A stretch of DNA of 64,000 nt from an uncultured bacterium. Lineage in GTDB: Bacteria; Verrucomicrobiota; Lentisphaeria; Victivallales; UBA1829. The notes beneath the pieces are model-generated. The model did no database searches, was not told the DNA's origin, and worked only from the letters and a program-made list of their open reading frames with translations. The position numbers were made by a program, and so were the translations under genes. The DNA lies in NCBI GenBank assembly GCA_900548385.1, contig URKJ01000001.1, positions 72,360-136,359 on the forward strand, written 5' to 3'. Below are positions 29,620-53,458 of this stretch, piece by piece (position 1 is the first letter of the stretch; each line of letters begins with the position of its first letter).

Positions 29620-30453
29620 TTACTCCGGCAAATTCTTTGCGCGGTATTGCGTTGGTGTGAGCCCCGTATATTTTTTGAAGATGCGGAAAAAGAAAAATTC
29701 GTTCTCGAATCCGGTCCGGAGCGCGATCTCCTTGATCGGATCCTGTGTACGGAGCAGAAGCATTTTCGCCTTGCTGATCCGCCGGATGGAGAGGTATTGT
29801 TTCGGGGGGACGCCCATCGCCCGGCGGAACTGGGCGGAGAATTCGGGACCGGAGAGAGAGGTCATGGCGCGCAGTTCCGCGATTTCAAGCGGCCGTTCCA
29901 GATTATTGTCGATATAGTCGGTGATATGGGAGAACCGGTCGCTGCTGAAACGCAGACCGTGCCCGTCGGCAAGTTTTTCCAGCAGAATAGTCAGAACGGA
30001 GATGACCTTATGTTTCACCTCGAAGACTTCGGAGATGGTCCGTGCAGAGGAGAATCCGCGGACGATTTCCCGGAAGAGCGGACGGAGCGTTCCGGTGGCG
30101 ACCGGCAGGCGGAACGGCTCGCCGAGTCCCTGGATATGTCCCAGTTCATCGGAAAAAAAGTGTATCCAGTAATGGGTGGATGGGGTAATGCTCCGGACGA
30201 GGAAAGGTGCATAGGGCGGGATCAGATAAAGATTGTCCGGGACGATCGCGTATTCCTCGTAAGTGTATTGCAGGCGGAAATCGCCTTTGACGGGCAGGTA
30301 AATGCGCCAGAACGGGTCCCCGACCGCCTGAACGTGTTCCGGCCATTCCGTGATTTCGGTGCTGAATCCGGAGATCAGCAGCTCAAGATCAAGCCTGCTG
30401 ATAAAACCGAGATACGGATGCCGGATGCGGTGATAATAATGGTGTCGTGACAT
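29620..30453 (-). CDS. AraC family transcriptional regulator
   Basis: C-terminal double HTH (FSAQFRRAMGVPPKQYLSIRRISKAKMLLLRTQDPIKEIALRTGFENEFFFFRIFKKYTGLTPTQYR). Cupin-like N-terminal sensor domain. GGAG RBS. Confidence 0.87.
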   Translation of the reverse strand: MSRHHYYHRIRHPYLGFISRLDLELLISGFSTEITEWPEHVQAVGDPFWRIYLPVKGDFRLQYTYEEYAIVPDNLYLIPPYAPFLVRSITPSTHYWIHFFSDELGHIQGLGEPFRLPVATGTLRPLFREIVRGFSSARTISEVFEVKHKVISVLTILLEKLADGHGLRFSSDRFSHITDYIDNNLERPLEIAELRAMTSLSGPEFSAQFRRAMGVPPKQYLSIRRISKAKMLLLRTQDPIKEIALRTGFENEFFFFRIFKKYTGLTPTQYRAKNLPE

Positions 30454-30507
30454 GAAAAAATCTCCGTTTTCTGAAAAAAAGTATATAATATTATTACAAT
30501 AACTGCA

Positions 30508-30536
30508 TTTACAAAAAGATGCAAATGATGTATAAT
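30508..30536 (+). promoter_or_regulatory. Sigma70-type promoter of H-X9-DG/CAZyme cassette 1
   Basis: TTTACA (30508-30513), 17-nt spacer, TATAAT (30531-30536), 39 nt upstream of ATG 30576. Confidence 0.6.
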
Positions 30537-30575
30537 GAATGCAATGTTAATTTTAAACAAAAAATGGAGGTTTGT

Positions 30576-31316
30576 ATGATCAAATGTCGGTTTACCATTC
30601 TGGAGCTCCTCGTCGTAATCGCCGTGATTTCCATTCTGGCGGCTCTGCTGCTGCCCGCTTTGAATTCGGCGCGGGAAACGGCGAGGGGGGCGCGATGCCT
30701 CAGCAACATCAAACAGGTCAATACCGCTCTGACTGCGTACACGGTTGATTTTACGTTTTATCCATGGCCGTTCCGGACTGCGGAGAATATCGGTATGGAA
30801 CAGCGGATCATCGAGGCCGGGTATATGAAACCGCTTCGCCGGGGAGCTCAGACCTACAAGGACCGTTTTGAGGTGCAGTGCGATTCCCTCCGGGATCTTG
30901 TCTGCGCGGAAGGTTCCACCTATCCCGTGAGTTCCTATATTCCGAATTACAGCAACACTTACGGAGGTGTGCTGACTGCCGGAAGTCATGGCATTACCGG
31001 AGACGAGGAGTATCCGGAACTGACACTTGCCAGACCGGAAAAGGTGAAAGCCCCGTCGCGGAAAGTCGTATTTGCGGAACGGAAAAATTCCGGCGGACAT
31101 CTTCATTATATTATGGATTGCCGGAATCTTTATGATCCATCCCATACGGGAAGCGAGGAAAGACTCGGTCCCGTCCACCGGCAGAATGCGTCGTTTGCTT
31201 TCGCTGACGGTCATGCCGCATCCTGGAACGTCGTTACGCAGTTGAGTCATGGCGGAGACGTGTACGGTTACGGACTCCGTCTGTGGAAAAAATATTTCAA
31301 CATCTCGGAACCTTGA
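30576..31316 (+). CDS. Prepilin-type N-terminal domain protein of the H-X9-DG family (DUF1559-like pseudopilin)
   Basis: [35 protein letters not shown]-terminus. C-terminal [12 protein letters not shown] (H-X9-DG). GGAGG RBS before ATG 30576. Confidence 0.87.
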
Positions 31317-31335
31317 TAACCGGAAGGAAAATGAA

Positions 31336-34300
31336 ATGATGAATTGCCGTTATTGGATCTTTGCCGGAAGTATTGCCGCCGCTCTGCTGTCCGCCGCGGA
31401 AAAACTGCCGGTTCCTGCTGGGAAAGCCGGACTGCCGGAAACGGTCTCCGCCGGAAAAGCGGAAGTGTTGAACCCTGAAATCCGGGGGACGTCACTGGTT
31501 GCCGGAACAAAACAGCTTCAGCTGCTGAACAATTTTCAGATCGGGATCAGCGACAGCGGGATTCCGATTGCAAATTCCGGTCCCGTCTGTCTGGTGAAAG
31601 AGCTTGACAGCGGGAAAGAGCACTGGCTCGGACTCCGGGCGCAGCCGGGGATGTTTACCGTCAAACGGGAGGGAAACCGCTTTCTTTATATACAGCGGGC
31701 GAAGCTCGAAAATGACACATGGGAACTGGCACGTCAGGAAACGGAGTTTCTGCCGGACGGCCTTGTCCGGGTGACTTTCCGCTGGAATCCGCCCGATCCG
31801 GCGAAATATTCGTTCCGCAGTTTCGGATTCTTTCTGGATATTCCGTATTCCGCCGGTTCCGGGAAAAAGGTCGTCTGCGACGGAAAGGCGTACACGCTTC
31901 CCGGAAAGGCGGTCAACAGCGTTCTGCACGCAGGAGGGACCAAAGCGCACCGTCTGGAGTTTTTTCCGGACGAACCCGCACGCTGTTTCACCGTTTTCAC
32001 AAAGGAAAAGGAGTCGAACGGCATTTCCTGCTACGCCGTTAAAAATGCGATTTCGTTCCGTTTGCAGGAGAGCGGAGACAGCCGGGAACTGACGTTTTAT
32101 CTCGACATCCGCCGCGGCGTGCGCGCTTCCCGTTCGGAGTCCCTGCGCGGCGGAGTGGATTTCCGCGCGGTGGAGAATCTGACGATGCCCGATGATTCCA
32201 GCCGCAATCTCATCGTGAATCCCTCGTTCGAGCAGGGAATGACGGGGTATCACCTTTTTCGGCATTCCGGCTACAACTACTCCAGGGAAAAGTGGGAAAC
32301 GGAACTCTATGCGCTGGATGACCGCGTGAGCCGGTTCGGCGGAACGTCTCTGCGCATGACCACGTTTTTCGCACAGAAAAAAGGGGACGATTACCGGAAT
32401 CTGAGCTCTTCCGGCAATCTTTCCACACACCATACCGCCGTGGCTCCGGGCGTCTATACCCTGAGCTTTTACATCAAGGGGACGCATCCCGGCGAACAGA
32501 CGTTCAACGCATGGGTTTCCCCCTACAACTACGGGCCGTACAATCATTGGCTTGCGGTGAAAGGCGGCGTTGTGAGCGTTCCCGTGACGACGGAGTGGAC
32601 GCGTCACACCGCGACATTCCGGATCGATTCCATGATGCCGTTGAACGTGCGCTTCAACGCGGTCGGCTCCCGGCGGCGCGGATTCGTCTGGGTCGACGGC
32701 ATTCAGGTGGAGAAAGGGGATCGGGCGACCGCGTTTGACGTGAAGCCCGTCGAAGCGCGCCTTGTGACTTCAGATCCGGAAAACTTCCTCTCCGCCAAAG
32801 CCCGGATCGGTGCGAAACTGAAACTGACGGTTCCGCCGGATGCGTCGGGAAAAGGTGTGACGACGATCCGCAACTTTTACGGAGAAACCGTGTTCCGGCA
32901 GGATTTCCGGTTCCGTGCCGACCGTTCGGGCAGGGCGGAGGTCGCGCTGGATCTGGACCGGAATCATCCCGGCAAGGGTATTCTCATGCTCCGCACCGAT
33001 TACGAACTTGCGGACGGACGCAAATGTTACGATCTGCACCGTCTGACGATTCTTGATTTTCTTGAAAACAAACATCCGCACCGTTTTCTGTTCAGTGACA
33101 ATTACGGCGATCTTTACGAGAATCCGTTGCTGTACCGGATTCTGGAGCGTTGGAAAAAGGTCGGATTCGGTGCGAAAGCGCAGATATTCACGCCCGATCC
33201 GCTGATTCATGACACGTTTGCGAAATTCGGGATTCCCATTACCGAAGTGATCCTTGTCCGCAAACTGTGGAACAGTCCCGACGGGCGTGCGCACTGGGGC
33301 GTTTCCTCCCGTTTTCAGATGCGGGACCGTCTGACTCCCGACGATCCGTCGCTGCTGTTCCGGGATTTTTTTCTGGATGCCGGCGGCGAGGTCACGCCGG
33401 AGTATCTGGCAAAGGTGCGCAATGCCTGCCGGAAGATCGCGGAACGTTATCCGAAGATCATCCGCTGGCAGTTCTCCAATGAAATGGGTGCCGGATTCCC
33501 GCGCGAATGGTGGTCGCGGGAGGGATCGGCGGAGAAACGCGCCGAACGGTTCGCTCTGATCGTGAAAGCGTTTGCCGACGGTATCCGCGCCGGAAATCCG
33601 GCGGCGCAGGTCAGCGCGGACTGCCCATGGAACATGAACCCCGATGGCGGCATTGCCGAAACGGAAGCCCTGCTGAAAGCCGCAAACCGGATCGGGCTCC
33701 GTCTGGACCGTCTGGCGACGCACACTTACCGTGCCACGCCGGAAAGTCCGGATCTGGATGCGGATACCGCGCTTTATCTGAAACGCGCGGCGGAAGCCGG
33801 GTATACGAAAGAACCGCTGTTCTGGAGCGAGATGATGCACTGGGGACCCTATACCGTTCCTGCGTGGGGAGTCGTCTCGGCAGACTGGATGGGGACCCCG
33901 AAGACGTGGTACGGCGGCCCCGTCAGTTACGATATGGGATGGAATGAAAAAGTTTCCGCCGCATGGCGCGCCCGTTCGTGGCTTGTGGGACTCAAATATT
34001 CCGATCGCGTGAAAACCGCCTGTTCCAGTTCGGATATGAACAATTTCATCATGGATCTGGACCTGACGCCGTTTGCATCGCAGGTGATACCGAACACGCT
34101 TGGAAACCTACTTGGCGATTCGACGTTCCGGAAAGACATCCGCTTTGCCGCATATATCCGCGCCTATGTGTTTGAGGATGCGCAGAAACGTCCGGTGGCG
34201 GCGGTATGGTGTCATCTGCCGGAACTTGACGAAGGACGGCAGGACGCTCCGGTCGCGGAGGCGGATTTCGGGTCCGCGCTGGAGTCCGTGATTGATCTGA

Positions 34301-35361
34301 TGAACAATGAACGCGCGTTTGCGCCGGGCAGACTCCGTTTTCCCGTCACGCCGTTCCCGCTGTTCTTCCGGGGAAAGCCGGGAACGCTCGATGCTGTGAT
34401 CCGTGCGTTGGAAAATGCGGTGATCGTGGCGGGAAAAGGCGTTTCGCGTCTTCAGGTTTCGGCGAATCCTTCCACGCCGGAGACGGTGACGCTGAATATG
34501 AAAAATCTGCTCTCGTCCGCGTTCACCGGAACGGCGGGGGAAAAACCGTTTACCGTTCCCGGATCGCAGTCAGCGTCGGTGACGCTGCCGCTGCCGGAAA
34601 AGTTGTCGTACAGCCGGATCGCGGAGGAGAAACTTCCGCTTGTCATCAAGGGGACGGCGTCAAACGAACGGATGACGGTCGATCTTTCGTTCCGCGGGAT
34701 TCTCTGCAGACGGGTCGGGGACGATGTGACGCCGGCGGACATCCGCTGGGATTCGCTTCCCGCCGTCCGTCTGGCGCCTGCCGCGAACATGCCGGAGCTG
34801 ACCGGAGGCGTTTACCGGATGGCGTGGAATTCCAAAGGGCTCTTTCTGCGCGTCGAAGTCCGGGACCCGGTGTTTTCCCATATTGAGTTTCCGAAACCGG
34901 CGGCCCGCTGGGCGAACGATTCGCTGCAGCTCTACTTTGATACATACGCCGATGCCCGCGCGCGTCAGACGCGCGGTTCCGATGACAACGATTATGAGTA
35001 TATGCTGTTTCCGGATTCCGCCGGAATCTCCTGTTCGGTCTACCGCGCCCGGATGGTGGACTGGCAGCTCGGACTCGGCACCTCGCAGGCGAAAGCCGGC
35101 ACGTTTGCCGCTGATATTCCGTCCACGTTCCGGCGGTCCGCCAACGGCTATGTGTATGACGTTTTCTTCCCGGCGAAAGATCTGCTCCCGGTGCAGTTCC
35201 GGAAAGGGTATGTATTCGGATTCGGCATTTATCTGAACAATGCTGATGATCCGGCGGAGAAAAGTCATAAACGCCGCATCTCCGCTCTGACCAATGCCGC
35301 GGGAGGCGGAACCTGTTACAACGCTCCGCATCTCTGGCCGGCGGTTCTGCTGTGGGAATAA
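31336..35361 (+). CDS. Secreted multi-domain CAZyme-like protein (1341 aa): CBM-like jelly roll, TIM-barrel glycoside-hydrolase-like region, C-terminal CBM9-like module
   Basis: Signal peptide MMNCRYWIFAGSIAAALLSAAE. NLIVNPSFEQG...GFVWVDGIQVEKG (CBM4_9-like boundaries). WQFSNEMG (clan GH-A style Asn-Glu). C-terminus NDSLQLYFD...GFGIYLNNADD resembles CBM9/DOMON-like modules. Confidence 0.8.
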   Translation: MMNCRYWIFAGSIAAALLSAAEKLPVPAGKAGLPETVSAGKAEVLNPEIRGTSLVAGTKQLQLLNNFQIGISDSGIPIANSGPVCLVKELDSGKEHWLGLRAQPGMFTVKREGNRFLYIQRAKLENDTWELARQETEFLPDGLVRVTFRWNPPDPAKYSFRSFGFFLDIPYSAGSGKKVVCDGKAYTLPGKAVNSVLHAGGTKAHRLEFFPDEPARCFTVFTKEKESNGISCYAVKNAISFRLQESGDSRELTFYLDIRRGVRASRSESLRGGVDFRAVENLTMPDDSSRNLIVNPSFEQGMTGYHLFRHSGYNYSREKWETELYALDDRVSRFGGTSLRMTTFFAQKKGDDYRNLSSSGNLSTHHTAVAPGVYTLSFYIKGTHPGEQTFNAWVSPYNYGPYNHWLAVKGGVVSVPVTTEWTRHTATFRIDSMMPLNVRFNAVGSRRRGFVWVDGIQVEKGDRATAFDVKPVEARLVTSDPENFLSAKARIGAKLKLTVPPDASGKGVTTIRNFYGETVFRQDFRFRADRSGRAEVALDLDRNHPGKGILMLRTDYELADGRKCYDLHRLTILDFLENKHPHRFLFSDNYGDLYENPLLYRILERWKKVGFGAKAQIFTPDPLIHDTFAKFGIPITEVILVRKLWNSPDGRAHWGVSSRFQMRDRLTPDDPSLLFRDFFLDAGGEVTPEYLAKVRNACRKIAERYPKIIRWQFSNEMGAGFPREWWSREGSAEKRAERFALIVKAFADGIRAGNPAAQVSADCPWNMNPDGGIAETEALLKAANRIGLRLDRLATHTYRATPESPDLDADTALYLKRAAEAGYTKEPLFWSEMMHWGPYTVPAWGVVSADWMGTPKTWYGGPVSYDMGWNEKVSAAWRARSWLVGLKYSDRVKTACSSSDMNNFIMDLDLTPFASQVIPNTLGNLLGDSTFRKDIRFAAYIRAYVFEDAQKRPVAAVWCHLPELDEGRQDAPVAEADFGSALESVIDLMNNERAFAPGRLRFPVTPFPLFFRGKPGTLDAVIRALENAVIVAGKGVSRLQVSANPSTPETVTLNMKNLLSSAFTGTAGEKPFTVPGSQSASVTLPLPEKLSYSRIAEEKLPLVIKGTASNERMTVDLSFRGILCRRVGDDVTPADIRWDSLPAVRLAPAANMPELTGGVYRMAWNSKGLFLRVEVRDPVFSHIEFPKPAARWANDSLQLYFDTYADARARQTRGSDDNDYEYMLFPDSAGISCSVYRARMVDWQLGLGTSQAKAGTFAADIPSTFRRSANGYVYDVFFPAKDLLPVQFRKGYVFGFGIYLNNADDPAEKSHKRRISALTNAAGGGTCYNAPHLWPAVLLWE

Positions 35362-44244: not shown

Positions 44245-44273
44245 CCGGAGCCGGAGATCCGGCTCCGGTTTTT
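44245..44273. terminator. Rho-independent terminator (shared by convergent genes)
   Basis: CCGGAGCCGG-AGAT-CCGGCTCCGG followed by TTTTT. Confidence 0.8.
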
Positions 44274-44277
44274 CTGT

Positions 44278-47200
44278 TTATTCCGGAATCCAGAATCCGA
44301 AATTGTGGCGGAACTGGTGATTGAATCTGGTTCCGCTCCAGGTTTTTTGAAGACGGCGCCTTTTGCCGTCGTTGTCGTTGACCGAAATATCAAACGATAC
44401 CGGAGTGCCCGGAGCCTGACGCAGTTCCCGCCACGGGATTTCCAGTACGGCGGCGTAACCGTTTTCCGTGTCCGTGAGTTTCCAGCGGATGGAGGAGAGG
44501 TCGACGTCGCCGCTTTTGTCCAGACGTGCCGGTTTGCCCTCCGCGCCGGCGGTCATATACAGCCGGAAGGTGTCTTTCCGGTATTCTTTCCGTTCCATAT
44601 CCGCGAGCGGGGCGCGGTCGAAATACAGCTCAATGCAGTCGCCGTTCCAGAATTCCGGAGGAGAATATCTGCCGCGTTTCACGTCGCGCACCTGAATGTT
44701 CAGCCGGAACATTTTACTGTCTCCGGAAGCCTGAAAGGATGCGGAAAACGGATCGTCGTTCTCCGCTTTTCCGGTAGTGACCTGCGTAATTTGCGCGGTT
44801 TCTCCGGAGCGCAGGAAACGTTGAGCTTCCACGGGAACGGAAACGGTCCGTGTGACTTTTCCGTCGTAGATCATCAGTTTGACCGTTCCGCCGGGCAGGA
44901 CGGAGCCTTTCGTTTCGACCGGGATCAGCAGAACGGCGGTTTTTCCCGCCGGAAGCCGCAGGGAGGCGGAGCCCGGTTTTGCCGCTTTTGCCGAGGGCGC
45001 GGAGAGCAGCCGTACTTTCAGTTCCTGTGCTTCCAGCGTGCTGCGGAATTCCAGCGCAAGGACCGGCTTTCCCTGTTCCGCGAACCAGCGGGCACGGGTG
45101 ATTTCATATCCGTTTTCCGGTACGATCCTGCTTTCATTCAGCATTTTCCGCAAGGCGTCGAGCCCCTGCCTGCCGCGGATATACATCGGGGTGTTGGTCA
45201 GCGGCATGGCGGGAACCGCTTTTACCGGGTTGCCGAATACGTCGAACAGGTCTACAGTTTGAGGATTGGAGAACGTGATTGAGAATTTCCGGTTCGGCGT
45301 GTAATTCCAGACCGCCGCCATCGGCTGCTTTCCGGGGATTGTGTACAGATATGCCGTGGTTCCGAGCGGCGTATTGAGTTTGCCTGCGGGAACCGCGCGT
45401 TCCATCAGACGGGCGAACGCATTGGCGGCAACGTAAATATCGGTGGGAATCAGGCGCCTCTGAACGCGTTCCCTGATATAGCCGTAACCGGGATTGCGGT
45501 CGCCCCGGTAGCTTGTTTCACAGGGCAGAAGCGTTTCCTGTTTCACTCCTTCCCCGAGGTCGAGCAGAACGCGGCGGATGAAACTTTGCGCGGAAACGAT
45601 TCCATTGGTTACGGCGTCTGCATTGTGCCGCTGCACCGTGTAATAAAGTTCCGTGTTCCAGAGCGGCAGACCTTTGCGGTATTTGGCGATGATCCGCTTG
45701 ATGTCCCGGACTGCCTCGTGTGCGGGATAAGGCGAATGTTCCTCGCGGGAAGAGTAGGGGTGAAAGGAAACGATGTCTGTGTACTGATAGCCGCCGAGTT
45801 TGCCGAACCGCTCCAGAAAATCTCCCATCTGCCCGCCGAGGTCGCCGGTGACGTTCGGGGCGATGACGCGGATCGCCGGGTCAATTTTCCGGCACTCTTC
45901 AAATGCGATCTTTGCAAGTTTGACATAATCCTCCGGCGAGGTCGTCAGGTTGGCTTCATTCAGGATTTCCCAGTACCGGATACGGCCTTTGAAATGGGAA
46001 ACCGTCGCGCGGACATAGTTCCGCCAGTCGTCAAGATTCGGCATGATCGCCGGTTTGCCGTGCATTTTAAAGGTGGAGCTCAGCGTGCCGCGCCGCTGTG
46101 CCCATTCCGGCAGATAACGTTCCAGCAGAACGTTGCCGAGAACACCGAGCAGAACATTGCCGTACCCGAGCCGCTGATTCACAAAACGGTCGGCGAGGCG
46201 GAAATCGAATTTCCCCTGTTCCGGCTCCACGGTCGCCCACTCGAAAATCCGGTATACACCGTTGCCGATCCGGTTGATCCGGTAGCCCTGATTGCGGTTG
46301 ATCCGGTGATAATCCGCTTCATCCGACTCCAGCAGCTGAAAGAACGCTTTTCCGCCGTTGATGTTCGGACAGCCGAAATGGAATCCCTCTTCGACTCCGA
46401 GTACAAAATCGCGGTCCGGGTGAAACGGTTCCGGCGTGTATTTGCCGGAGAACGCATAGAGAAACGGCAGCACCCGTTCCTGTTTGCCGTTGAGCATAAA
46501 AACCGCTTCCGTTGAGTATACGCCGTAAGGACGCATCGGAACGGTGAACGTTTTCGACGCTGTTCTGCCTGCCGGAACGGTCAGTTCCGCCGGACGTTCC
46601 GTCAGAGCTTTTCCGGTATAGTCGTCACGGTCGCGGAAAAGAAACTTCACGGTTCTGTCGTTCTTTCCGTAATTGATTCCGGTGAGGGTGAAGGTCAGCG
46701 GCTGTTCGCCGTCGATATGCAGATGGCGCGGAGCCGTGAGCGTGAATTCCATATCGCTTTTCAGCGAGAACGGCGTTGCCTGTGTGCCGGGTTCCACCTG
46801 AAGCGCGTCGAACCAGACGGTCGCATCGCTGTCTTCGCCCCACAGGAAATCAAGAAGGTACGATTTATGACCGTTCGGCGGCAGAAACGTGTAGGTATAG
46901 CGTTTCCAATCGGTCGAGAGCGTGACGGTTCGGGACGGATTGAACCAGTCCCGTGCGGCTCTGCCGTTCTTTTCCGCCGGGATGATGGAGATCGGCAGAT
47001 AGCGGAGTTTGACCGGCTTGGAACTTTTCGCATAGAAACTGAGCGTGTACGGCTTGCCGGGCGTTACGCTGAAGTCCGGTGAACGCAGAACGGCGGGAGT
47101 CGCGTCCGGATTGTCGAAACGCAGACTCTGTCTGCCGTGGACCCTGGTGTTTTGATCCGGTACGGGCGGCAGATATTTTACTTCTTCCGGCTGCATCGGG

Positions 47201-47319
47201 CGCGCGTAGCGCAGTTTTGCATAATCCGCGCCGCCGAGTTCAAAACTGGCGTCGGGAAGGAGGTTTCCCGCCGCGAGCAGTACGGGCAATGCAAGAAAGG
47301 GATAAAAAAGATGTTTCAT
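44278..47319 (-). CDS. Secreted multi-domain CAZyme-like protein (1013 aa): N-terminal CBM-like module, TIM-barrel GH-like core, C-terminal CBM9-like module
   Basis: Signal peptide MKHLFYPFLALPVLLAAGN. LLPDASFELGG...VWFDALQVEPG (CBM4_9-like). WEILNEANL (Asn-Glu acid/base style motif). C-terminus NGDCIELYFD...ISVNDNDG (CBM9-like). Confidence 0.8.
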   Translation of the reverse strand: MKHLFYPFLALPVLLAAGNLLPDASFELGGADYAKLRYARPMQPEEVKYLPPVPDQNTRVHGRQSLRFDNPDATPAVLRSPDFSVTPGKPYTLSFYAKSSKPVKLRYLPISIIPAEKNGRAARDWFNPSRTVTLSTDWKRYTYTFLPPNGHKSYLLDFLWGEDSDATVWFDALQVEPGTQATPFSLKSDMEFTLTAPRHLHIDGEQPLTFTLTGINYGKNDRTVKFLFRDRDDYTGKALTERPAELTVPAGRTASKTFTVPMRPYGVYSTEAVFMLNGKQERVLPFLYAFSGKYTPEPFHPDRDFVLGVEEGFHFGCPNINGGKAFFQLLESDEADYHRINRNQGYRINRIGNGVYRIFEWATVEPEQGKFDFRLADRFVNQRLGYGNVLLGVLGNVLLERYLPEWAQRRGTLSSTFKMHGKPAIMPNLDDWRNYVRATVSHFKGRIRYWEILNEANLTTSPEDYVKLAKIAFEECRKIDPAIRVIAPNVTGDLGGQMGDFLERFGKLGGYQYTDIVSFHPYSSREEHSPYPAHEAVRDIKRIIAKYRKGLPLWNTELYYTVQRHNADAVTNGIVSAQSFIRRVLLDLGEGVKQETLLPCETSYRGDRNPGYGYIRERVQRRLIPTDIYVAANAFARLMERAVPAGKLNTPLGTTAYLYTIPGKQPMAAVWNYTPNRKFSITFSNPQTVDLFDVFGNPVKAVPAMPLTNTPMYIRGRQGLDALRKMLNESRIVPENGYEITRARWFAEQGKPVLALEFRSTLEAQELKVRLLSAPSAKAAKPGSASLRLPAGKTAVLLIPVETKGSVLPGGTVKLMIYDGKVTRTVSVPVEAQRFLRSGETAQITQVTTGKAENDDPFSASFQASGDSKMFRLNIQVRDVKRGRYSPPEFWNGDCIELYFDRAPLADMERKEYRKDTFRLYMTAGAEGKPARLDKSGDVDLSSIRWKLTDTENGYAAVLEIPWRELRQAPGTPVSFDISVNDNDGKRRRLQKTWSGTRFNHQFRHNFGFWIPE

Positions 47320-48203
47320 TTCAGCTCCTTGAGTTCTGCTGTTTTGATGTCAAGCCACTGCAGGGGTGCGTTCAGTTCCACTTTGAGTGCCATCATTCCG
47401 CGGTAAAGCGTTTCTTCGGGCGCGGTGAAGCGGATCGAATATTCCTGCCATCCGGTTTCGAGACGGATTTTCTTCATGCGGTACCAGTGCTTTTTCCCGC
47501 CGGGGACCCAGCCGTCGATGAAGAAAGCCGCCGGGATTGCGGCAGAGGCTTTGAGCCACAGCGAGATCTGATATTCCCTGCCGGGAAGAACAGGGAACGC
47601 CACGGATTGGATCGCGGCCTTTTTGCCGTTTTCCGGACGGAAGCGAAGAGCTTTTCCGCCGTCGATATGGTCTTCCGCTCCGGTATATTCAAATTTGTAA
47701 TTCGTATTCCGGGTGTTCCATTGCGGTCCCCAAAATGGAGTGAAACGGCTGTCGGGTTCCTGCTTGAATACTGCGGACGGATGAAATGCGGTCAGCCGGA
47801 TGTTGCGGACCATGACGGCGGCAGGCGATTTGCTTTCCGCAAAAATGTTGATCCGCGCGGGACCGTCCTCCGGCTGATAGAGAAAACCGTTCATCGTGCG
47901 CGGGGAACCATTCGGGGCGAAATCACTGAACTGCCGTCCGTATTCTTTCCGGTTCTGCGGAAACAGGCTGAGTGTGATCCGTGTTCCGGCGGGTGTGTTG
48001 TGCTCGAGAGAGAGCAGATAGTACCCTTTTTTCAGCGGAAGCTGCTGCGTGACTGCGCTCCATTTACCCGGAGTGACGTTGATTTGCACTCCGTTGTTCT
48101 TGACTTCCGCGCAGGAGCGTCCGAACTGATGCGGATTTTCCGGCAGAAGATTCTGCGCGGAAATCGGGAGAGCGAGGGCGAGAAGGAGGGGTGTCGTTTT
48201 CAT
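47316..48203 (-). CDS. Secreted protein with two jelly-roll (CBM-like) halves
   Basis: Signal peptide MKTTPLLLALALPISAQN followed by LLPENP... Two ~130-aa beta-rich halves ending in VRNIRLTAF and LDIKTAELKELK. ATGA overlap with the downstream 1013-aa gene. Confidence 0.65.
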   Translation of the reverse strand: MKTTPLLLALALPISAQNLLPENPHQFGRSCAEVKNNGVQINVTPGKWSAVTQQLPLKKGYYLLSLEHNTPAGTRITLSLFPQNRKEYGRQFSDFAPNGSPRTMNGFLYQPEDGPARINIFAESKSPAAVMVRNIRLTAFHPSAVFKQEPDSRFTPFWGPQWNTRNTNYKFEYTGAEDHIDGGKALRFRPENGKKAAIQSVAFPVLPGREYQISLWLKASAAIPAAFFIDGWVPGGKKHWYRMKKIRLETGWQEYSIRFTAPEETLYRGMMALKVELNAPLQWLDIKTAELKELK

Positions 48204-48222: not shown

Positions 48223-48969
48223 TTATTTTGCAAGATTCAGATCGAATGACCACCCGCCGGCGCCCCTGATGGTTACCCAGCTGAGCCGCATGGAGCTGCT
48301 GCGGGATGTGACGTTTCCGCTTGTTTGCAGAAAATTGGTCCTTCCGTTATGAGTAAACAGGTCTTTCCGGAGGATTTCTGGAGCGATAGTATCCGAACCG
48401 CAGTTGAATTTCGTCTGCATGATAGGATCGTAGCATGCGATCGCATTTCTCCAGGAGACATACTCCGGTGTCATGCTTGCCATCAGTGCGACACCGCTGG
48501 AAAGTGCCGTGATCCGGGAACCTTTCACCTGTTCTCCGCCGCTCTCATTCTGCGCTATGACATACCAGCTGAATCCGGGGGTATTATTAGGAACAGAACC
48601 TAAAAGAGTCTGATAGGAGGAATAGTACTTGGTGTTCGCATTGACCGGAGGGACAATATCATGGGTCGGGCAGAAGAGTACGCCTTTCTGTGCCGTTTCG
48701 TATTCCGCAATGCCGAGATAACGGTGGAAATAATCCCGGAAATATTGATTGCTGGCGTTCCAGACCGGCGGCAGCATATCGTCGGAGTCGCCGACATAAT
48801 TCGCGATGGCGGTGCCGATCTGTTTCATGTTGCCCATGCACAGGGCTTCCCGCGCTTTGTTTCTTGCCGAGTTCAGCGCCGGAAGAAGCATGCCGGCAAG
48901 GATTGCGATAATCGCAATTACTATGAGGAGTTCTATGAGGGTGAATTTGTTTCTCTCCGGTCTTTCCAT
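48223..48969 (-). CDS. Prepilin-type N-terminal domain protein of the H-X9-DG family (variant H-X9-SG)
   Basis: [42 protein letters not shown]-terminal [12 protein letters not shown]. Confidence 0.87.
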
Positions 48970-49051: not shown

Positions 49052-49148
49052 GAGGGAAAGGTGTTTTTTTGAGAAACATTTATGATACAGCTTGAAACAT
49101 TTGAAACAACGGTTATTGTATACGGAGAAAAACACAGGGAGAACGGAG

Positions 49149-50141
49149 ATGAAGGCAACGGTCCGGACGATTGCAAAAGAGGCGGGAGTTTCCCCGGCAA
49201 CGGTGTCGCGTGTATTCAGCGGAGCGGCGAAAGTGTCGCCGCAGGTTCGGCAGCGCGTATTGAACGCGGCGGCGCAGGCGGGATACGATTCCGGGGAGAA
49301 AAAGAATGTGGCGGTGATCATACCGGAAAACAGCGGGCTTTCCGGATACGGGGGGATGATTCTGGAATCCCTGTTCCTTGAGCTGAACAGTCACGGTTTC
49401 CGGGCGCTGGCGATCACTGCGGACGATATTGCGCTTCTGGATGAAACGGTTGTTGCCGGTGCGATTTCCGTGATCTACCGGCATGGACTGGAGAAGATGT
49501 GGAACAAGAAGCGCGCGGTTCCGTTGATCTGCATCAACAGCTATGGTTATCCGATCGACGGCGTTTACGAGGTGAGTTCCAATGATGGACAGGGAATCAC
49601 TGCCGCGATGAATTTGCTGTATGAGAAAGGACACCGCCGGATCGGGATGATGACGAATATTTTTGATATGTCGAATTCCCGCAATTCAGCGATCCGCGCC
49701 CGCACGTTTGACTCTTTTATCAAAAGCCATTCCGACTGTTCCGGCATTTTCCGCAACTGCATGTTGTCAGCCGGCTTTCTGGATACGGTTATGGAATTTG
49801 TCCGCTTCGGGGTGACGGCGATCATTGCCGCCGGGGAGAGTCTGGCGGCTCCGGTCAATCATATTCTGAGTACCTGCGGGATCCGCGTGCCGGAGGATAT
49901 TTCTCTGATCGGGTTTGAATCCCGGCATGTCTCCGAGTATCTCCATCCGCCGGTAACGTGTCTGGAACAGCGCATGGGACGGCTGGCGGAGCTGGCCGTG
50001 GAGCTGCTGGCGAAACAGCTCCGCGGCGAACACAATCTGAAAAACGAACGTGTCGATTACAATCTGTTCATTCGCGACAGTGTGGGTGCTCCTCCGCTTA
50101 TTCCAGTTTCAGAACGGTTATATTCCGGCTCCGGCTGCTGA
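49149..50141 (+). CDS. LacI family transcriptional regulator
   Basis: MKATVRTIAKEAGVSPATVSRVFSG HTH plus a periplasmic-binding-fold body. GGAG RBS before ATG 49149. Confidence 0.9.
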   Translation: MKATVRTIAKEAGVSPATVSRVFSGAAKVSPQVRQRVLNAAAQAGYDSGEKKNVAVIIPENSGLSGYGGMILESLFLELNSHGFRALAITADDIALLDETVVAGAISVIYRHGLEKMWNKKRAVPLICINSYGYPIDGVYEVSSNDGQGITAAMNLLYEKGHRRIGMMTNIFDMSNSRNSAIRARTFDSFIKSHSDCSGIFRNCMLSAGFLDTVMEFVRFGVTAIIAAGESLAAPVNHILSTCGIRVPEDISLIGFESRHVSEYLHPPVTCLEQRMGRLAELAVELLAKQLRGEHNLKNERVDYNLFIRDSVGAPPLIPVSERLYSGSGC

Positions 50142-52232: not shown

Positions 52233-52301
52233 CTGTTTTTCCGGTTGTCAAGAATTTTTTTCAAAAAAAGAGCGTTCCGGGGGCTTGACAAAACGGTGAT
52301 C
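52233..52301. repeat. Copy A of a ~68-nt intergenic element (inverted repeat TTGTCAAG ... CTTGACAA)
   Basis: CTGTTTTTCCGGTTGTCAAGAATTTTTTTCAAAAAAAGAGCGTTCCGGGGGCTTGACAAAACGGTGATC. Near-identical copy at 58323-58389 (differences: one T in each of two T-runs, one G/C). Confidence 0.85.
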
Positions 52302-52313
52302 TTGTTTTATAAT
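52285..52313 (+). promoter_or_regulatory. Consensus sigma70 promoter (TTGACA-17-TATAAT) for the GntR/LacI-hybrid regulator operon
   Basis: TTGACA 52285-52290, 17-nt spacer, TATAAT 52308-52313. The -35 box is the right arm of the repeated element. Confidence 0.7.
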
Positions 52314-52342: not shown

Positions 52343-53458
52343 TTGGAGGTTTTTGTTTTGGGAGAAGGATTGACCAAACAGGAGCGGATTTTTCAGACAC
52401 TGGTGCTGGAAATCGAAAAAGGGATCTGGCCTGTGGATTCACTGCTTCCTTCGGGTGCCAGGCTGGCGGAACGTTTTGATGTGGCTCCGCTGACGGTACG
52501 CAGGGTTCTTCTGGAATTGCAGAATCAGCATTATATCCGGACCGTGAACGGGGTCGGGAGTTTCGTCCTGTCGCGTCCGCAGGAGGACGAACCGAAAATT
52601 CTGGTGGTGACTACGCCGACTTTTACACAGGAAAGCTGTTTGCTGTATATCATTTCCGGAATCATGGAAAGCTGTCAGGAACGGAAAGTGAAGGTCGATT
52701 TTCTGCTGGAGAGTTTTCTGCGCGGCGACGACCGGATCGCTTTTGCCCGGAATTTGCGCAGAAAAAATTATCTGGGGGTGATTTTCACCCGCTGTCTTTT
52801 TGTCGGGGATGAACCGGAATTTGCGGCGCTCCGGGAACTGAATATTCCGGTTTTGCTGCCTCATGCGACACCGGAAGACAGGAAAATGACCGGTTTCGCC
52901 ACATTGTTTACAGATGAAGCCGCCGCATGGGAAGATGCTTTAGTTTATTTACGGGAGCTGGGACACCGGCGGATCGCACAGCTGATGCGTCCACTGCATA
53001 CCGGCAGATTCCGGTCGCGGACCTGGGTGCAGCATCAGAATCTGCTGAAAAAACTGGGACTGGATGCTTCTCCGGATCTGTTTTGCATCCTGAACGATTA
53101 CAATTCTCCGGATTTTGTTCCGCTGCTGACCGGATTGCTTCAGAAGCCGGAACGGCCTACGGCGATACTGGGCTTTTCGGACTTCTTTGCGCTTCGTGCC
53201 TGTGATGAATTGGCACGTCTGCGGATCGGGGTTCCGGACGAGCTGTCGGTGATGGGATTTTGCGGTTACCCAGGAGGCGAGTCCAGAGCGTGTCCGCTGT
53301 CCACAATGGATTTCATGTACGGCAGAATCGGGGATCAGGCTGTGCGGACTCTGCTCCATGCTTCGGAATGGTTCGGCGGCGGAAAAAAGGTGCCGCTGCT
53401 GAAAACTCCATACCGGCTGGTCGAACGGAGTACAACGGGTTTATGCCACGGAACGTGA
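52343..53458 (+). CDS. GntR-type HTH fused to LacI/periplasmic-binding-fold sensor (transcriptional regulator)
   Basis: IFQTLVLEIEKGIWPVDSLLPSGARLAERFDVAPLTVRRVLLELQNQHYIRTVNGVGSFV (GntR wHTH), followed by a sugar-binding-like domain (ILGFSDFFALRA). TTG start uncertain. Confidence 0.78.
   Translation: MEVFVLGEGLTKQERIFQTLVLEIEKGIWPVDSLLPSGARLAERFDVAPLTVRRVLLELQNQHYIRTVNGVGSFVLSRPQEDEPKILVVTTPTFTQESCLLYIISGIMESCQERKVKVDFLLESFLRGDDRIAFARNLRRKNYLGVIFTRCLFVGDEPEFAALRELNIPVLLPHATPEDRKMTGFATLFTDEAAAWEDALVYLRELGHRRIAQLMRPLHTGRFRSRTWVQHQNLLKKLGLDASPDLFCILNDYNSPDFVPLLTGLLQKPERPTAILGFSDFFALRACDELARLRIGVPDELSVMGFCGYPGGESRACPLSTMDFMYGRIGDQAVRTLLHASEWFGGGKKVPLLKTPYRLVERSTTGLCHGT

What the first reader, a model, noticed from the sequence alone, without database searches (positions are those of the whole stretch)
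29620..35361. Recurrent regulator / H-X9-DG pseudopilin / secreted CAZyme cassette (copy 1 of 3): candidate PVC-type polysaccharide-utilisation module
Seen:
- A 246-aa protein has a prepilin-type N-terminal helix ([29 protein letters not shown]) and a C-terminal H-X9-DG motif ([12 protein letters not shown]).
- It is driven by a near-consensus TTTACA-17-TATAAT promoter.
- 19 nt downstream starts a 1341-aa signal-peptide protein with a CBM-like module, a GH-like TIM-barrel segment (WQFSNEMG) and a CBM9-like C-terminus.
- An AraC regulator lies divergently upstream.
- The same order (dedicated regulator, one H-X9-DG gene, then one to three secreted carbohydrate-active proteins) recurs at 44278-50141 and 52233-58281. 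The regulator families and enzymes differ between copies.

Established: H-X9-DG prepilin-like proteins (TIGR04294/DUF1559 type) are hugely expanded in Planctomycetota, Verrucomicrobiota and Lentisphaerota, and have no experimentally defined role.

Inference: each H-X9-DG paralog is a substrate-specific accessory of its neighbouring enzyme(s). It might act as a secretion adaptor, a surface tether or a glycan-capture pseudopilus tip. That would make the cassette a functional analogue of Bacteroidota PULs, built on pseudopilins rather than SusC/D.
Basis: partly seen in the sequence, partly recalled or inferred. Interest (0 to 1): 0.72.

Follow-up and report, generated by a model that had tools for sequence, protein, structure and literature searches.

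The report
Sugar-switched pilin-plus-secreted-enzyme operons in Lentisphaeria
In this gut Lentisphaeria genome, and in its relatives, a sugar-type regulator gene is repeatedly followed by one or two pilin-like "H-X9-DG" genes and then by exported carbohydrate-degrading enzymes, which gives the first strong contextual clue to what this huge uncharacterised protein family does.

Summary
The window holds an AraC regulator (29620-30453, -), a TTTACA-17-TATAAT promoter, a 246-aa H-X9-DG pilin-like gene (30576-31316) and, 19 nt later, a 1341-aa signal-peptide protein (31336-35361). That protein has a GH2-like multidomain fold, two conserved candidate catalytic glutamates and a CBM9 domain. Two further cassettes lie at 44278-50141 and 52285-58315.

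The pattern is not chance. In ten Lentisphaeria loci, 16 of 19 pilin clusters have a sugar-type regulator immediately upstream (background 0.13, p=4e-12). Of 29 downstream operon proteins, 25 carry signal peptides, against 0 of 8 sugar enzymes outside such operons.

It is not PVC-wide. In a broad metagenome sample, about 4 of 50 upstream neighbours were such regulators, and downstream genes were small and varied.

Two results complicate the "dedicated adaptor" idea:
- Orthologous enzymes (62-65% identical) are preceded by unrelated pilin heads.
- The Lentisphaeria pilins lack the canonical Gly at -1 of the prepilin-peptidase site (0 of 74).

My best reading (confidence about 0.4) is an inducible operon whose pilin-like protein plugs into a shared type II secretion or type IV pilus-like machine, to export or retain the co-encoded enzymes at the surface. 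Function remains inferred. I rate it a new variant of a known kind.

The parts
29620..30453 (-). AraC-family regulator of cassette 1 (cupin-type ligand domain plus HTH_18), divergent from the pilin gene
   Evidence: Pfam HTH_18 4.3e-20, HTH_AraC 9.6e-11, AraC_binding 4.1e-5. Orthologs at about 44% identity occupy the same position in L005-L007.
30508..30536 (+). Sigma-70-like promoter TTTACA-17-TATAAT in front of the pilin gene
   Evidence: 11 of 12 consensus matches. It is the best site in 29400-36400 and was read directly.
30576..31316 (+). H-X9-DG pilin-like protein 1 (246 aa): 5-residue basic leader, F+1/E+5 helix, variable beta head, H201-X9-D211-G212-H213
   Evidence: AF2 model pLDDT 87. 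No solved structural neighbour.
31336..35361 (+). Exported 1341-aa putative glycoside hydrolase: signal peptide, N-terminal beta domains, CBM4_9-like module, clan GH-A-like (beta/alpha)8 barrel with candidate catalytic E716 and E832, beta-sandwich domains, C-terminal CBM9
   Evidence: CBM9 1i82 at 1.8e-5; PslG/GH39 at 3.6e-3; GH2 enzymes at E 4e-10 to 1e-7; CBM9 TM 0.76-0.79.
49092..50141 (+). LacI-family regulator of cassette 2, divergent from pilin 2
   Evidence: Pfam LacI 2e-12, Peripla_BP_3 1.4e-23.
48223..48969 (-). Pilin-like protein 2 (248 aa) with degenerate H-X9-SG-N motif
   Evidence: N_methyl and DUF1559 at threshold, TIGR02532 at 21.8 bits. Aligned in A1.
47316..48203 (-). Exported CBM4_9-like protein (about 295 aa from MKTTP...), starting 19 nt after pilin 2
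   Evidence: CBM_4_9 6.4e-5, below cut-off. Signal peptide.
44278..47319 (-). Exported 1013-aa enzyme with CBM4_9, a GH10-like clan GH-A barrel and CBM9. Same architecture as the 1341-aa protein. Start overlaps the previous stop by 4 nt.
   Evidence: Pfam CBM9_1 4.9e-10, CBM_4_9 5.3e-7, Glyco_hydro_10 2.4e-5. PDB GH10 xylanases about 1e-4 and CBM4 1gui 4e-5. Shared modules with enzyme 1.
44245..44268 (.). G+C-rich 10-bp hairpin at the 3' end of cassette 2
52285..52313 (+). Perfect TTGACA-17-TATAAT promoter in front of the cassette 3 regulator
   Evidence: 12 of 12 matches.
52343..53458 (+). GntR-HTH / Peripla_BP_3 hybrid regulator of cassette 3, co-directional with the pilin
   Evidence: Pfam GntR 1.7e-8, Peripla_BP_3 6.6e-16.
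53530..54390 (+). H-X9-DG pilin-like protein 3 (286 aa, 23-residue basic leader, [13 protein letters not shown])
54436..56958 (+). Exported 840-aa protein with a weak GH5 (Cellulase) match
   Evidence: Pfam Cellulase 7.1e-4, below cut-off. Signal peptide. No PDB sequence match.
56962..58281 (+). Exported GDSL/SGNH esterase (439 aa)
   Evidence: Lipase_GDSL_2 1.8e-11. Signal peptide.
58288..58315 (+). Intrinsic-terminator-like hairpin (12-bp stem) closing cassette 3

Best explanation
Each cassette is a carbohydrate-responsive operon of a Victivallales-type Lentisphaeria bacterium.

The proposed sequence of events is:
1. A dedicated cytoplasmic sugar-sensing regulator (AraC, LacI or a GntR-PBP hybrid) switches on one transcript.
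2. That transcript encodes first one or two H-X9-DG pilin-like proteins, then one to three Sec-exported polysaccharide-degrading enzymes that carry carbohydrate-binding modules.
3. The pilin-like protein inserts into the inner membrane through its N-terminal helix. That helix is nearly identical among thousands of paralogs, so it should dock on one shared type II secretion / type IV pilus-like assembly machine.
4. The hypervariable periplasmic or surface head then couples the co-induced enzymes to that machine, either for passage across the outer membrane or for retention at the cell surface.

Shown here: the gene order, its recurrence and enrichment, probable co-transcription, export signals on the enzymes, a glycoside-hydrolase-like fold with CBM9, and the conserved helix with variable head.

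Inferred: assembly into a filament, use of a type II secretion machine, and any physical or functional coupling between pilin and enzyme.
For: - **Operon anatomy.** Promoter, Shine-Dalgarno sequences, gaps of 19 nt, 19 nt and 45 nt or overlaps, and no internal terminator.
- **Regulator adjacency.** 16 of 19 pilin clusters in ten Lentisphaeria loci have a sugar-type HTH regulator immediately upstream, and 18 of 19 within two genes. Background is 0.129, p=4e-12. All 7 'bystander' clusters that were not used to fetch the loci show the same arrangement (p=6e-7).
- **Export.** 25 of 29 proteins downstream in pilin operons have signal peptides, against 0 of 8 sugar enzymes outside them (Fisher p=1.3e-5). 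In the window, the GH10 without a signal peptide (50098-51417) is not in a pilin operon.
- **Conserved position.** Adjacency is kept across species at 62-89% enzyme identity.
- **Shared interface, variable head.** Mean pairwise identity is 0.77 for mature residues 1-35 and 0.18 for the head. F+1 and E+5 are invariant.
- **Machine present.** A secretin gene lies in one related locus (L090).
- **Published precedent.** In Verruconatronum alginivorum a pulG-like pseudopilin with 67 paralogs lies in one of two gene clusters that together held 14 of the 17 genes over-expressed on alginate. A further pseudopilin is over-expressed on alginate (PMC13274419).
- **Fusion.** A single-ORF fusion of the pilin/H-X..DGH module to a beta-propeller-like region and a Laminin_G_3 lectin-fold domain (L045) shows the module can carry an extracytoplasmic cargo domain.
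Against: - No experiment bears on this organism.
- The canonical Gly at -1 of the prepilin-peptidase site is absent: 0 of 74 close relatives and 2 of 117 hits. Planctomycete-type relatives have G or A in 28 of 28. Processing and filament assembly are therefore unproven.
- The head has no structural neighbour among solved pilins or pseudopilins, and the GspG equivalog score is far below its cut-off (39.6 against 88.85 bits).
- The pilin in front of an orthologous enzyme can be replaced by unrelated paralogs. This argues against a tight one-to-one protein-protein fit.
- Some pilin clusters lack an enzyme (L088 at 10001) or lack both regulator and enzyme (L091).
- The closest paralog subfamily of pilin 1 (P0009, 36% identity) sits before an enzyme with no BLAST-detectable similarity to enzyme 1.
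Confidence: 0.4

Rival explanations
1. Glycan-capture or uptake pilin ('fishing rod' or bindosome-like). The variable head binds the cassette's target polysaccharide or its fragments. It presents them to the enzymes, or pulls them into the periplasm by pilus retraction. The analogy is to DNA uptake by competence pili, or to the pilin-signal sugar-binding proteins of Sulfolobus.
For: - The heads are hypervariable and the helix is constant.
- The L045 fusion carries a lectin-fold Laminin_G_3 domain.
- Induction is by sugar-type regulators.
- Pfam files DUF1559 as 'SBP_bac_10', and an earlier paper calls it a new solute-binding family (PMC2754498).
- From my own knowledge: cellulose-binding type IV pilin-like proteins exist in Ruminococcus and Fibrobacter, and class III signal-peptide sugar-binding proteins exist in Sulfolobus.
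Against: - The AF2 head (pLDDT 87) shows no similarity to any periplasmic-binding-protein fold or lectin in the PDB. The best Foldseek E-value is 2.
- No transporter gene sits in any of the three cassettes.
- The enzymes carry their own CBMs.
- An orthologous enzyme, presumably with the same substrate, pairs with unrelated heads.
Confidence: 0.2
2. Generic supply of filament subunits. The operon-borne pilin simply raises the pool of (pseudo)pilus subunits whenever a large secreted enzyme is induced. Head diversity reflects drift, or diversifying selection by phages or the host, and not substrate or cargo specificity.
For: - Non-orthologous replacement occurs at a conserved position, and copy number varies from one to two per operon.
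- The helix is near-identical across paralogs.
- Pilin subfamily does not track enzyme family.
Against: - It is hard to see why dozens to hundreds of distinct heads would be kept, each behind its own regulator.
- Within a clade the heads are conserved as well as the enzymes are: 74-94% against 80-93%. That points to purifying selection on each head.
Confidence: 0.15
3. Not a filament subunit at all. Without Gly at -1 the protein is never cleaved. It stays as a bitopic inner-membrane protein whose periplasmic head acts as an escort, folding or holding factor, or as a membrane tether, for the newly exported enzymes.
For: - Gly at -1 is lost specifically in the Lentisphaeria clade.
- TIGR02532 is below threshold for pilin 1, and pilin 3 has no hit.
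- There is no structural match to solved pilins.
- The association is strict with Sec-exported partners.
Against: - A mere membrane anchor would not keep 77% identity over 35 residues, or an invariant F+1 and E+5. Those are the hallmarks of processing and subunit-subunit packing.
- The Lentisphaeria peptidase may simply have a relaxed -1 preference.
Confidence: 0.15
4. Chance adjacency. H-X9-DG genes and CAZyme genes are both so numerous in these genomes that neighbours arise without functional meaning.
For: The family is very large: more than 6409 hits among 8000 scored candidates. In the broad metagenome sample the neighbours are heterogeneous.
Against: - Binomial p=4e-12 for regulators and p=4e-4 for downstream genes of at least 600 aa. 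Fisher p=1.3e-5 for signal peptides.
- The position is conserved across species.
- Operon spacing is tight.
Confidence: 0.02

Closest known systems
H-X9-DG / DUF1559 prepilin-like paralog family (TIGR04294, PF07596 'SBP_bac_10') of Planctomycetota, Verrucomicrobiota and Lentisphaerota
   Same: - [16 protein letters not shown]...LLPAL helix.
- C-terminal H-X9-DG(H) block.
- Length of 220-290 aa.
- Homologs that JGI names 'prepilin-type processing-associated H-X9-DG protein'.
- Function unknown according to the literature (PMC10632474).
   Different: - The Lentisphaeria members have lost Gly at -1.
- They are embedded as the first genes of regulator-controlled operons for exported enzymes.
- Planctomycete-type members in the sample keep G or A at -1, are longer (about 320-360 aa), and are followed mostly by small ORFs.
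Type II secretion pseudopilins (GspG/PulG and minor GspH-K), with the pullulanase (Pul) secreton as the classic sugar-induced case
   Same: - N-terminal helix with F+1 and E+5.
- A small beta head.
- Association with Sec-exported polysaccharide hydrolases that must cross the outer membrane.
- Maltose-type induction logic (this last point is from my own knowledge).
   Different: - No gsp/pul machinery genes lie in the cassette.
- There is one head per enzyme operon, not one fixed set of five.
- The GspG equivalog score is far below its cut-off.
- Gly at -1 is absent.
- The head is unlike solved pseudopilins.
Bacteroidota polysaccharide utilisation loci (SusC/SusD PULs)
   Same: A substrate-responsive regulator is co-localised with exported CAZymes and a non-catalytic envelope protein. 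Many differently specialised copies occur per genome.
   Different: There is no SusC-like TonB-dependent transporter and no SusD-like protein. No transporter of any kind is encoded in the cassettes. The accessory protein is pilin-like.
Alginate-induced gene cluster of Verruconatronum alginivorum (Opitutales), which contains a pulG-like pseudopilin (PMC13274419)
   Same: A pseudopilin-like gene with many paralogs (67) lies inside a polysaccharide-degradation cluster. A further pseudopilin, outside the two main clusters, is over-expressed on the polysaccharide. The authors suggest type II secretion of the lyases.
   Different: It is a single anecdotal locus in another phylum, with polysaccharide lyases rather than GH-A enzymes. 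It was not generalised into a recurrent regulator-pilin-enzyme unit. I did not check its -1 residue or gene order.
Archaeal bindosome (Sulfolobus sugar-binding proteins with class III pilin-type signal peptides) and cellulose-binding type IV pilin-like proteins of Ruminococcus and Fibrobacter (both from my own knowledge)
   Same: Pilin-type N-termini are used to place carbohydrate-handling proteins at the cell envelope. Expression is sugar-linked.
   Different: The bindosome proteins have the solute-binding-protein fold and sit in ABC-transporter operons. Neither is the case here.

Membership tests
H-X9-DG prepilin-like family (TIGR04294 / DUF1559, PF07596) | N-terminal hydrophobic pilin-type helix with F at +1 and E at +5 | tested here: met
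   All three window proteins have it. F6 and E10 are invariant in the 74-sequence alignment A1.
H-X9-DG prepilin-like family (TIGR04294 / DUF1559, PF07596) | His, nine residues, then Asp-Gly near the C-terminus | tested here: met
   Pilin 1 has [13 protein letters not shown] and pilin 3 has [14 protein letters not shown]201 is invariant and D211/G212/H213 are at least 90% conserved. Pilin 2 is degenerate (H-X9-SG-N).
H-X9-DG prepilin-like family (TIGR04294 / DUF1559, PF07596) | Score above the curated cut-off of the family HMM | tested here: inconclusive
   PF07596 scores 24.9 bits (pilin 1) and 25.9 bits (pilin 2) against a cut-off of 23.3, but only over the first 35-40 profile positions. Pilin 3 has no hit. 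No TIGR04294 hit was returned by NCBIfam, even at E<=10 on the C-terminal segments. Homologs at E about 1e-14 are named H-X9-DG proteins by JGI.
Type IV prepilin / type II secretion pseudopilin (class III signal peptide; TIGR02532, PF07963) | Gly at -1 of the prepilin-peptidase cleavage site | tested here: not met
   The -1 residues are R, K and Y in the three window proteins. Gly occurs in 0 of 74 sequences in A1 and 2 of 117 hits. Planctomycete-type relatives have G in 21 of 28 and A in 7 of 28.
Type IV prepilin / type II secretion pseudopilin (class III signal peptide; TIGR02532, PF07963) | Curated HMM thresholds (TIGR02532 domain; GspG equivalog TIGR01710) | tested here: inconclusive
   TIGR02532: pilin 1 scores 15.9 bits against 16.3 (fails), pilin 2 scores 21.8 (passes), pilin 3 has no hit. 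TIGR01710 scores 30-40 bits against a cut-off of 88.85 and fails for all three.
Type IV prepilin / type II secretion pseudopilin (class III signal peptide; TIGR02532, PF07963) | Pilin fold: long alpha1 helix packed on an antiparallel beta sheet, similar to solved (pseudo)pilins | tested here: inconclusive
   The AF2 model (pLDDT 87) has helix 8-58 followed by a beta-rich head. Foldseek finds no PDB neighbour with an E-value below 2. The profile matches solved pilins only over the helix.
Type IV prepilin / type II secretion pseudopilin (class III signal peptide; TIGR02532, PF07963) | Cleavage and N-methylation by an A24 peptidase, and ATPase-driven assembly into a filament | not testable with these tools
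   This needs N-terminal mass spectrometry and genetics. Neither the peptidase nor an ATPase gene is in the window.
Bacteroidota-type PUL | Adjacent SusC-like TonB-dependent transporter and SusD-like genes | tested here: not met
   No such Pfam families appear in any cassette gene, or elsewhere among the 33 window ORFs scanned.
Bacteroidota-type PUL | Co-localised, co-regulated CAZymes with a dedicated regulator | tested here: met
   Co-regulation itself is inferred from operon anatomy.
Clan GH-A glycoside hydrolase (1341-aa protein) | (beta/alpha)8 barrel with acid/base Glu after strand 4 and nucleophile Glu after strand 7 | tested here: inconclusive
   The AF2 model (pLDDT 69) shows alternating beta/alpha elements. 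Foldseek matches GH2 enzymes at E 4e-10 to 1e-7, but with low TM scores because the proteins are multidomain. The family profile weakly hits PslG/GH39 (3.6e-3). E716 and E832 are conserved, 116 residues apart. Activity was not tested.
Clan GH-A glycoside hydrolase (1341-aa protein) | Membership of a defined CAZy/Pfam GH family | tested here: not met
   No GH Pfam family matches at E<=0.01. No PDB sequence match by phmmer. Only 20 relatives, all unannotated; the one named source is Lentisphaeria.
CBM9 (C-terminus of the 1341-aa and 1013-aa proteins) | Match to PF06452 above cut-off, and structural similarity to solved CBM9 | tested here: met
   32 and 40 bits against a cut-off of 23.4. The family profile matches 1i82 at 1.8e-5. 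Foldseek matches 7nwn, 7nwo and 1i82 with target-normalised TM 0.76-0.79.
Solute-binding protein (as the Pfam name SBP_bac_10 implies) / archaeal bindosome | Two-lobed periplasmic-binding-protein fold; partner ABC transporter in the operon | tested here: not met
   No PBP-fold hit for the confident AF2 model. No ABC transporter in the cassettes.

The most novel reading that the evidence does not exclude
Lentisphaeria may have built a modular polysaccharide-utilisation system on a pilus-type machine. Dozens to hundreds of interchangeable H-X9-DG 'adaptor pilins', each switched on with its own enzyme set, would load onto one shared secretion or pilus apparatus. There they would display or export the enzymes, or capture the glycan. 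Processing would be by a non-canonical mechanism, with no Gly at -1 and possibly a His-Asp-His metal site in the head. This would be a third architecture for glycan foraging, alongside Sus-type PULs and cellulosomes. It would also assign a role to one of the largest uncharacterised paralog families in the PVC superphylum.
Probability: 0.25. Interest if true: 0.85.

Novelty: new variant of a known kind. Interest (0 to 1): 0.62.

Why it matters
H-X9-DG/DUF1559 proteins form the largest paralog group in several PVC genomes: 68 in Planctopirus, 74 in Rhodopirellula, and 67 pulG-like copies in a Verrucomicrobiota isolate. None has a demonstrated function.

In gut and rumen Lentisphaeria these genes turn out to be the leading genes of sugar-regulated operons for exported glycoside hydrolases. 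That converts an annotation void into concrete, testable hypotheses about how diderm bacteria without SusC/D or cellulosomes deliver very large enzymes to insoluble glycans.

It also gives three practical or biological leads:
- A handle for finding new, unclassified carbohydrate-active enzymes: look downstream of these pilin genes. Many partners have no Pfam match.
- An apparent departure from the 'Gly at -1' rule of prepilin processing.
- A case of positional conservation with non-orthologous replacement, which constrains models of specificity.

Tried and rejected
1. **Solute-binding-protein reading.** The Pfam name SBP_bac_10 suggested it. Rejected: the confident AF2 model has no PBP-like neighbour.
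2. **Sequence or profile search for a solved structure of the head.** Only the N-terminal helix matches pilins.
3. **'Rosetta-stone' pilin-enzyme fusion in L006 (776 aa).** Rejected as an artefact. The translation contains a run of X from masked N bases that joins a pilin gene to a separate signal-peptide enzyme gene. The L045 fusion (874 aa) is contiguous and is kept.
4. **Generalising the cassette to the whole family.** The 80-locus metagenome scan showed heterogeneous, mostly small downstream ORFs and few regulators upstream. The claim was narrowed to Lentisphaeria.
5. **Pilin subfamily tracking enzyme family.** The closest paralog subfamily (P0009 and P0011, 35-36% identity) sits before unrelated enzymes, so no such tracking was seen.
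6. **TIGR04294 membership by HMM.** NCBIfam returned nothing.
7. **Assigning enzyme 1 to a CAZy family.** No Pfam GH hit, no PDB sequence hit, and only 20 unannotated relatives. Only fold-level evidence was obtained.
8. **Literature.** 'H-X9-DG', 'DUF1559', and Lentisphaerae/Victivallales combined with pilin or pseudopilin gave no description of this cassette.
9. **RNA genes.** Rfam and tRNA scans of the window found nothing.
10. **Promoter for copy 2.** No promoter-like site at the scan's threshold was found in the 122-nt LacI-pilin 2 intergenic region on the pilin strand.

Full report
**Source and scope.** The window comes from a Lentisphaeria (Victivallales-type) bacterium. The 1341-aa protein is 89% identical to a contig of a Lentisphaeria MAG (isolate HGM23471), and 59-65% identical to four other Lentisphaeria/Victivallales MAGs. 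The first 29 kb is housekeeping: MnmG, a C26 peptidase, a giant 2496-aa ORF, DAHP synthase and others. All three prepilin-motif ORFs of the window lie in the second half.

**Checking the observation.**
- The pilin-like gene is 30576-31316 (246 aa). It reads MIKCR|[29 protein letters not shown]... and ends ...H201[10 protein letters not shown]211-G212-H213.
- TTTACA-17-TATAAT lies at 30508-30536 and is the best promoter-like site in the region, matching 11 of 12 positions. GGAGG precedes the start codon.
- The next gene starts 19 nt after the stop, behind GGAAGG, with no terminator-like site between them.
- That gene's product has a Sec-type signal peptide, a sub-threshold CBM_4_9 match and a significant CBM9 match.
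- AraC lies divergently upstream.
- Copy 2: LacI 49092-50141, divergent from pilin 48223-48969, then an exported CBM4_9-like protein, then a 1013-aa CBM4_9 / GH10-like / CBM9 protein.
- Copy 3: GntR-PBP regulator 52343-53458, pilin 53530-54390, an 840-aa protein with a weak GH5 match, and a GDSL esterase.
- Both further copies are confirmed.
- Corrections: pilin 2 carries a degenerate H-X9-SG-N motif. In copy 3 the regulator heads the unit behind a perfect TTGACA-17-TATAAT (52285-52313), and a 12-bp-stem terminator closes it at 58288-58315.

**The enzyme.**
- No Pfam GH family and no PDB sequence matches the 1341-aa protein. Its family is tiny: 20 unannotated relatives, and the one named source is Lentisphaeria.
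- A profile of that family hits CBM9 (1i82, 1.8e-5) and, weakly, PslG/GH39 (3.6e-3).
- An AF2 model of residues 280-1341 (pLDDT 69) has an alternating beta/alpha core. It matches multidomain GH2 enzymes at E 4e-10 to 1e-7, and CBM9 structures at target-normalised TM 0.76-0.79.
It is conserved in all 11 family members that cover the position, though not in the distant window paralog. A second Glu, E832 (W-P/S-E), is conserved in 16 of 16. The two lie 116 residues apart, as expected for the acid/base and nucleophile of a clan GH-A barrel.
- The 1013-aa protein of copy 2 shares the modular plan.
- 'Secreted CAZyme' is therefore supported at fold level. The family is unassigned and activity is untested.

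**The pilin-like protein.**
- It belongs to an enormous family: at least 6409 hits among 8000 scored candidates. Some are named by JGI 'prepilin-type processing-associated H-X9-DG protein'.
- In a 74-sequence alignment, F+1, E+5, C41, C102 and H201 are invariant. W74, Y121, S161 and D211-G212-H213 are at least 90% conserved.
- Mean pairwise identity is 0.77 over mature residues 1-35 but 0.18 in the head.
- AF2 gives a confident model (pLDDT 87): a helix at 8-58 followed by a beta-rich head.
- Foldseek finds no neighbour in the PDB; the best E-value is 2. Profile-sequence matches cover only the helix of type IV pilins and GspG.
- The fold is therefore not that of a periplasmic solute-binding protein, despite the Pfam name SBP_bac_10 and an older statement in the literature.

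**An unexpected feature.** The canonical glycine at -1 of the prepilin-peptidase site is absent. The window proteins have R, K and Y. None of 74 close relatives and only 2 of 117 hits have G. Planctomycete-type relatives ('LLPAVQxAREA') in my metagenome sample have G (21 of 28) or A (7 of 28). Either the lineage's peptidase is relaxed, or these proteins are not processed.

**Is the cassette more than chance?** I fetched gene neighbourhoods, with precomputed Pfam hits, for nine homologous pilins on long Lentisphaeria contigs. I located every pilin-motif ORF in them.

The same unit recurs with different parts:

| Regulator | Pilins | Downstream genes | Locus |
|---|---|---|---|
| GntR-PBP | 1 | 911-aa protein | L088 |
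| AraC | 1 | 1083-aa protein | L088 |
| GntR | 1 | beta-helix protein | L089 |
| GntR-PBP | 1 | GH42 | L089 |
| PBP-AraC hybrid (divergent) | 2 | GH28 upstream of the pilins; 1118-aa protein and a GH63-like protein downstream | L090 |
| GntR-PBP | 2 | 666-aa protein, GH92 | L092 |
| IclR | 1 | 184-aa protein, DUF4838 | L093 |
| GntR-PBP | 1 | two exported proteins | L093 |
| PBP regulator | 2 | GH39 | L094 |
| LacI | 1 | cut off by the contig end | L094 |
| AraC | 1 | GH42-like protein | L095 |

Counting the window plus these loci:
- 16 of 19 pilin clusters have a sugar-type regulator as immediate upstream neighbour, and 18 of 19 within two genes. Regulators are 12.9% of the other genes. Binomial p=4e-12, or 5e-9 without the window.
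- All 7 clusters that merely happened to lie in the fetched flanks conform (p=6e-7).
- 10 of 18 immediate downstream genes are at least 600 aa, against a background of 18% (p=4e-4).
- 25 of 29 proteins downstream in pilin operons have signal peptides, against 0 of 8 sugar-metabolic enzymes outside such operons (Fisher p=1.3e-5).
- In the window itself, the GH10 gene without a signal peptide (50098-51417) is not in a pilin operon.
- Counter-examples exist. L091 has two pilins with neither regulator nor enzyme. L088 has an AraC-pilin pair with no enzyme.

**How general is it?** A scan of metagenome contigs with the family alignment returned 80 loci, mostly Planctomycete- and Verrucomicrobia-type.
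- Only 3 of 52 downstream ORFs reach 600 aa.
- The only Pfam families hit by more than one downstream neighbour were the pilin families and CarboxypepD_reg. Sulfatase, FGE-sulfatase and sugar-metabolic singletons also occur.
- Only about 4 of 50 upstream neighbours were AraC- or LacI/PBP-type regulators.
- The cassette is therefore a Lentisphaeria organisation, possibly shared with some Verrucomicrobiota. It is not a property of the whole PVC family.
- One published case fits. In Verruconatronum alginivorum, a pulG-like pseudopilin with 67 paralogs lies inside one of two gene clusters that held 14 of the 17 genes over-expressed on alginate. Another pseudopilin is over-expressed on alginate, and the authors suggest type II secretion of the lyases (PMC13274419).
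- I found no paper that describes the recurrent unit.

**Specificity.**
- In L005-L007 the enzyme ortholog (62-65% identical) and the AraC ortholog (about 44%) are kept. Two pilin genes precede the enzyme there. In L005 an extra 757-aa ORF lies between pilB and the enzyme. The heads of those pilins have no detectable similarity to pilin 1 (E>0.009).
- Within that clade the pilins are 74-94% identical, comparable to the enzyme's 80-93%.
- The position is thus conserved and each head is under purifying selection, yet the gene has been replaced non-orthologously.
- The closest paralogs of pilin 1 (P0009, P0011) precede enzymes with no BLAST-detectable similarity to enzyme 1.
- This weakens a strict one-pilin-one-enzyme lock-and-key model.

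**Mechanism.** The best-supported reading is a sugar-inducible operon in which the pilin-like protein couples co-induced, Sec-exported, CBM-bearing enzymes to a shared type II secretion / type IV pilus-like machine, for outer-membrane passage or surface retention.
- Shown: operon anatomy, enrichment, export signals, a conserved docking helix with variable head, and a secretin gene in a related locus.
- Inferred: processing, filament assembly, and coupling to the enzyme.
- A genuine single-ORF fusion of the pilin/H-X..DGH module to a beta-propeller-like region and a Laminin_G_3 domain (L045) shows that the module can carry extracytoplasmic cargo.
- An apparent second fusion in L006 is an artefact of masked bases.
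- Rivals: glycan capture or uptake, generic subunit supply, and an uncleaved membrane-anchored escort. None is excluded. Chance adjacency is excluded.

**Comparison with known systems.**
- The protein is a member of the H-X9-DG/DUF1559 family by motif and homology.
- It fails one defining test of classical prepilins (Gly at -1) and falls below the GspG equivalog threshold. 'Pseudopilin' therefore describes what it resembles, not an established membership.
- The cassette works like a PUL in logic (regulator, enzymes, non-catalytic envelope protein, many specialised copies). It is not one, because there is no SusC/D pair and no transporter.

**Verdict.** I rate the finding a new variant of a known kind, with interest 0.62.

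Noticed in passing
window 30576-30590, 48945-48969, 53530-53598; alignment A1: Lentisphaeria-type H-X9-DG proteins lack the canonical Gly at -1 of the prepilin-peptidase site. R, N, K and A are most common; Gly occurs in 0 of 74. F+1 and E+5 stay invariant. Planctomycete-type relatives keep G or A in 28 of 28.
   Followed up: partly
L005:5931-7488, L006:5621-7201, L007:8355-9918 compared with window 30576-31316: Orthologous enzyme and AraC genes are preceded by two pilin genes whose heads are unrelated to the window's pilin. This is non-orthologous replacement at a conserved operon position.
   Followed up: yes
L045:1043-3667 (+): An 874-aa single ORF fuses the pilin helix and an H-X..DGH head to a beta-propeller-like region and a Laminin_G_3 (concanavalin-like) domain.
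   Followed up: partly
L006:3-2330 (-): An apparent 776-aa pilin-enzyme fusion is an artefact. A run of masked N bases (X in the translation) joins a pilin gene to a separate signal-peptide enzyme gene.
   Followed up: yes
window 50098-51417 (-): A GH10 (E=6.5e-29) without a signal peptide lies convergent with the LacI gene and outside the pilin operon. It may be the cytoplasmic partner of cassette 2, whose exported enzyme is GH10-like with CBM4_9 and CBM9.
   Followed up: partly
window 52224-52313: Back-to-back strong promoter-like sites: TTGACA-17-TATAAT (+, 12 of 12) for the GntR/PBP-pilin-enzyme unit, and TTGACA-16-TATATT (-, 11 of 12) for the divergent 250-aa ORF at 51429-52181.
   Followed up: no
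window 3766-11256 (-): A giant 2496-aa ORF with only weak fn3 and Ig_Rha78A_N matches. Its function is unknown.
   Followed up: no
window 13293-16520 (-): A 658-aa protein with an N-terminal Tad (TadE/G-like) domain lies next to a DUF2157 membrane protein.
   Followed up: no
window 36304-37698 (-) and 20831-22003 (+): Two ORFs with weak PHP-domain matches. The first lies beside an EamA-type transporter directly downstream of, and convergent with, enzyme 1. Both neighbours are conserved in L003.
   Followed up: no
window 37755-41249: A TrmB-family sugar regulator, a 229-aa ORF without Pfam hits, a Gfo/Idh/MocA oxidoreductase and a PTS EIIA-2 protein lie together. This sugar-related cluster has no pilin gene.
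   Followed up: no
window 41280-43049: A 589-aa ORF on the minus strand has no Pfam match. My codon-usage gene calling preferred several short ORFs here, so the coding assignment is ambiguous. GC skew is highest in the window here.
   Followed up: no
window 58520-61204 (+) and 61896-63992 (-): Two large ORFs (894 and 698 aa) with no Pfam match and no signal peptide follow cassette 3.
   Followed up: no
alignment A1 (reference residues 41, 102, 201, 211-213): An invariant Cys pair (C41, C102) and a His...Asp-Gly-His cluster suggest a disulfide and a possible metal site in the head. Coordinates of the model could not be inspected.
   Followed up: no
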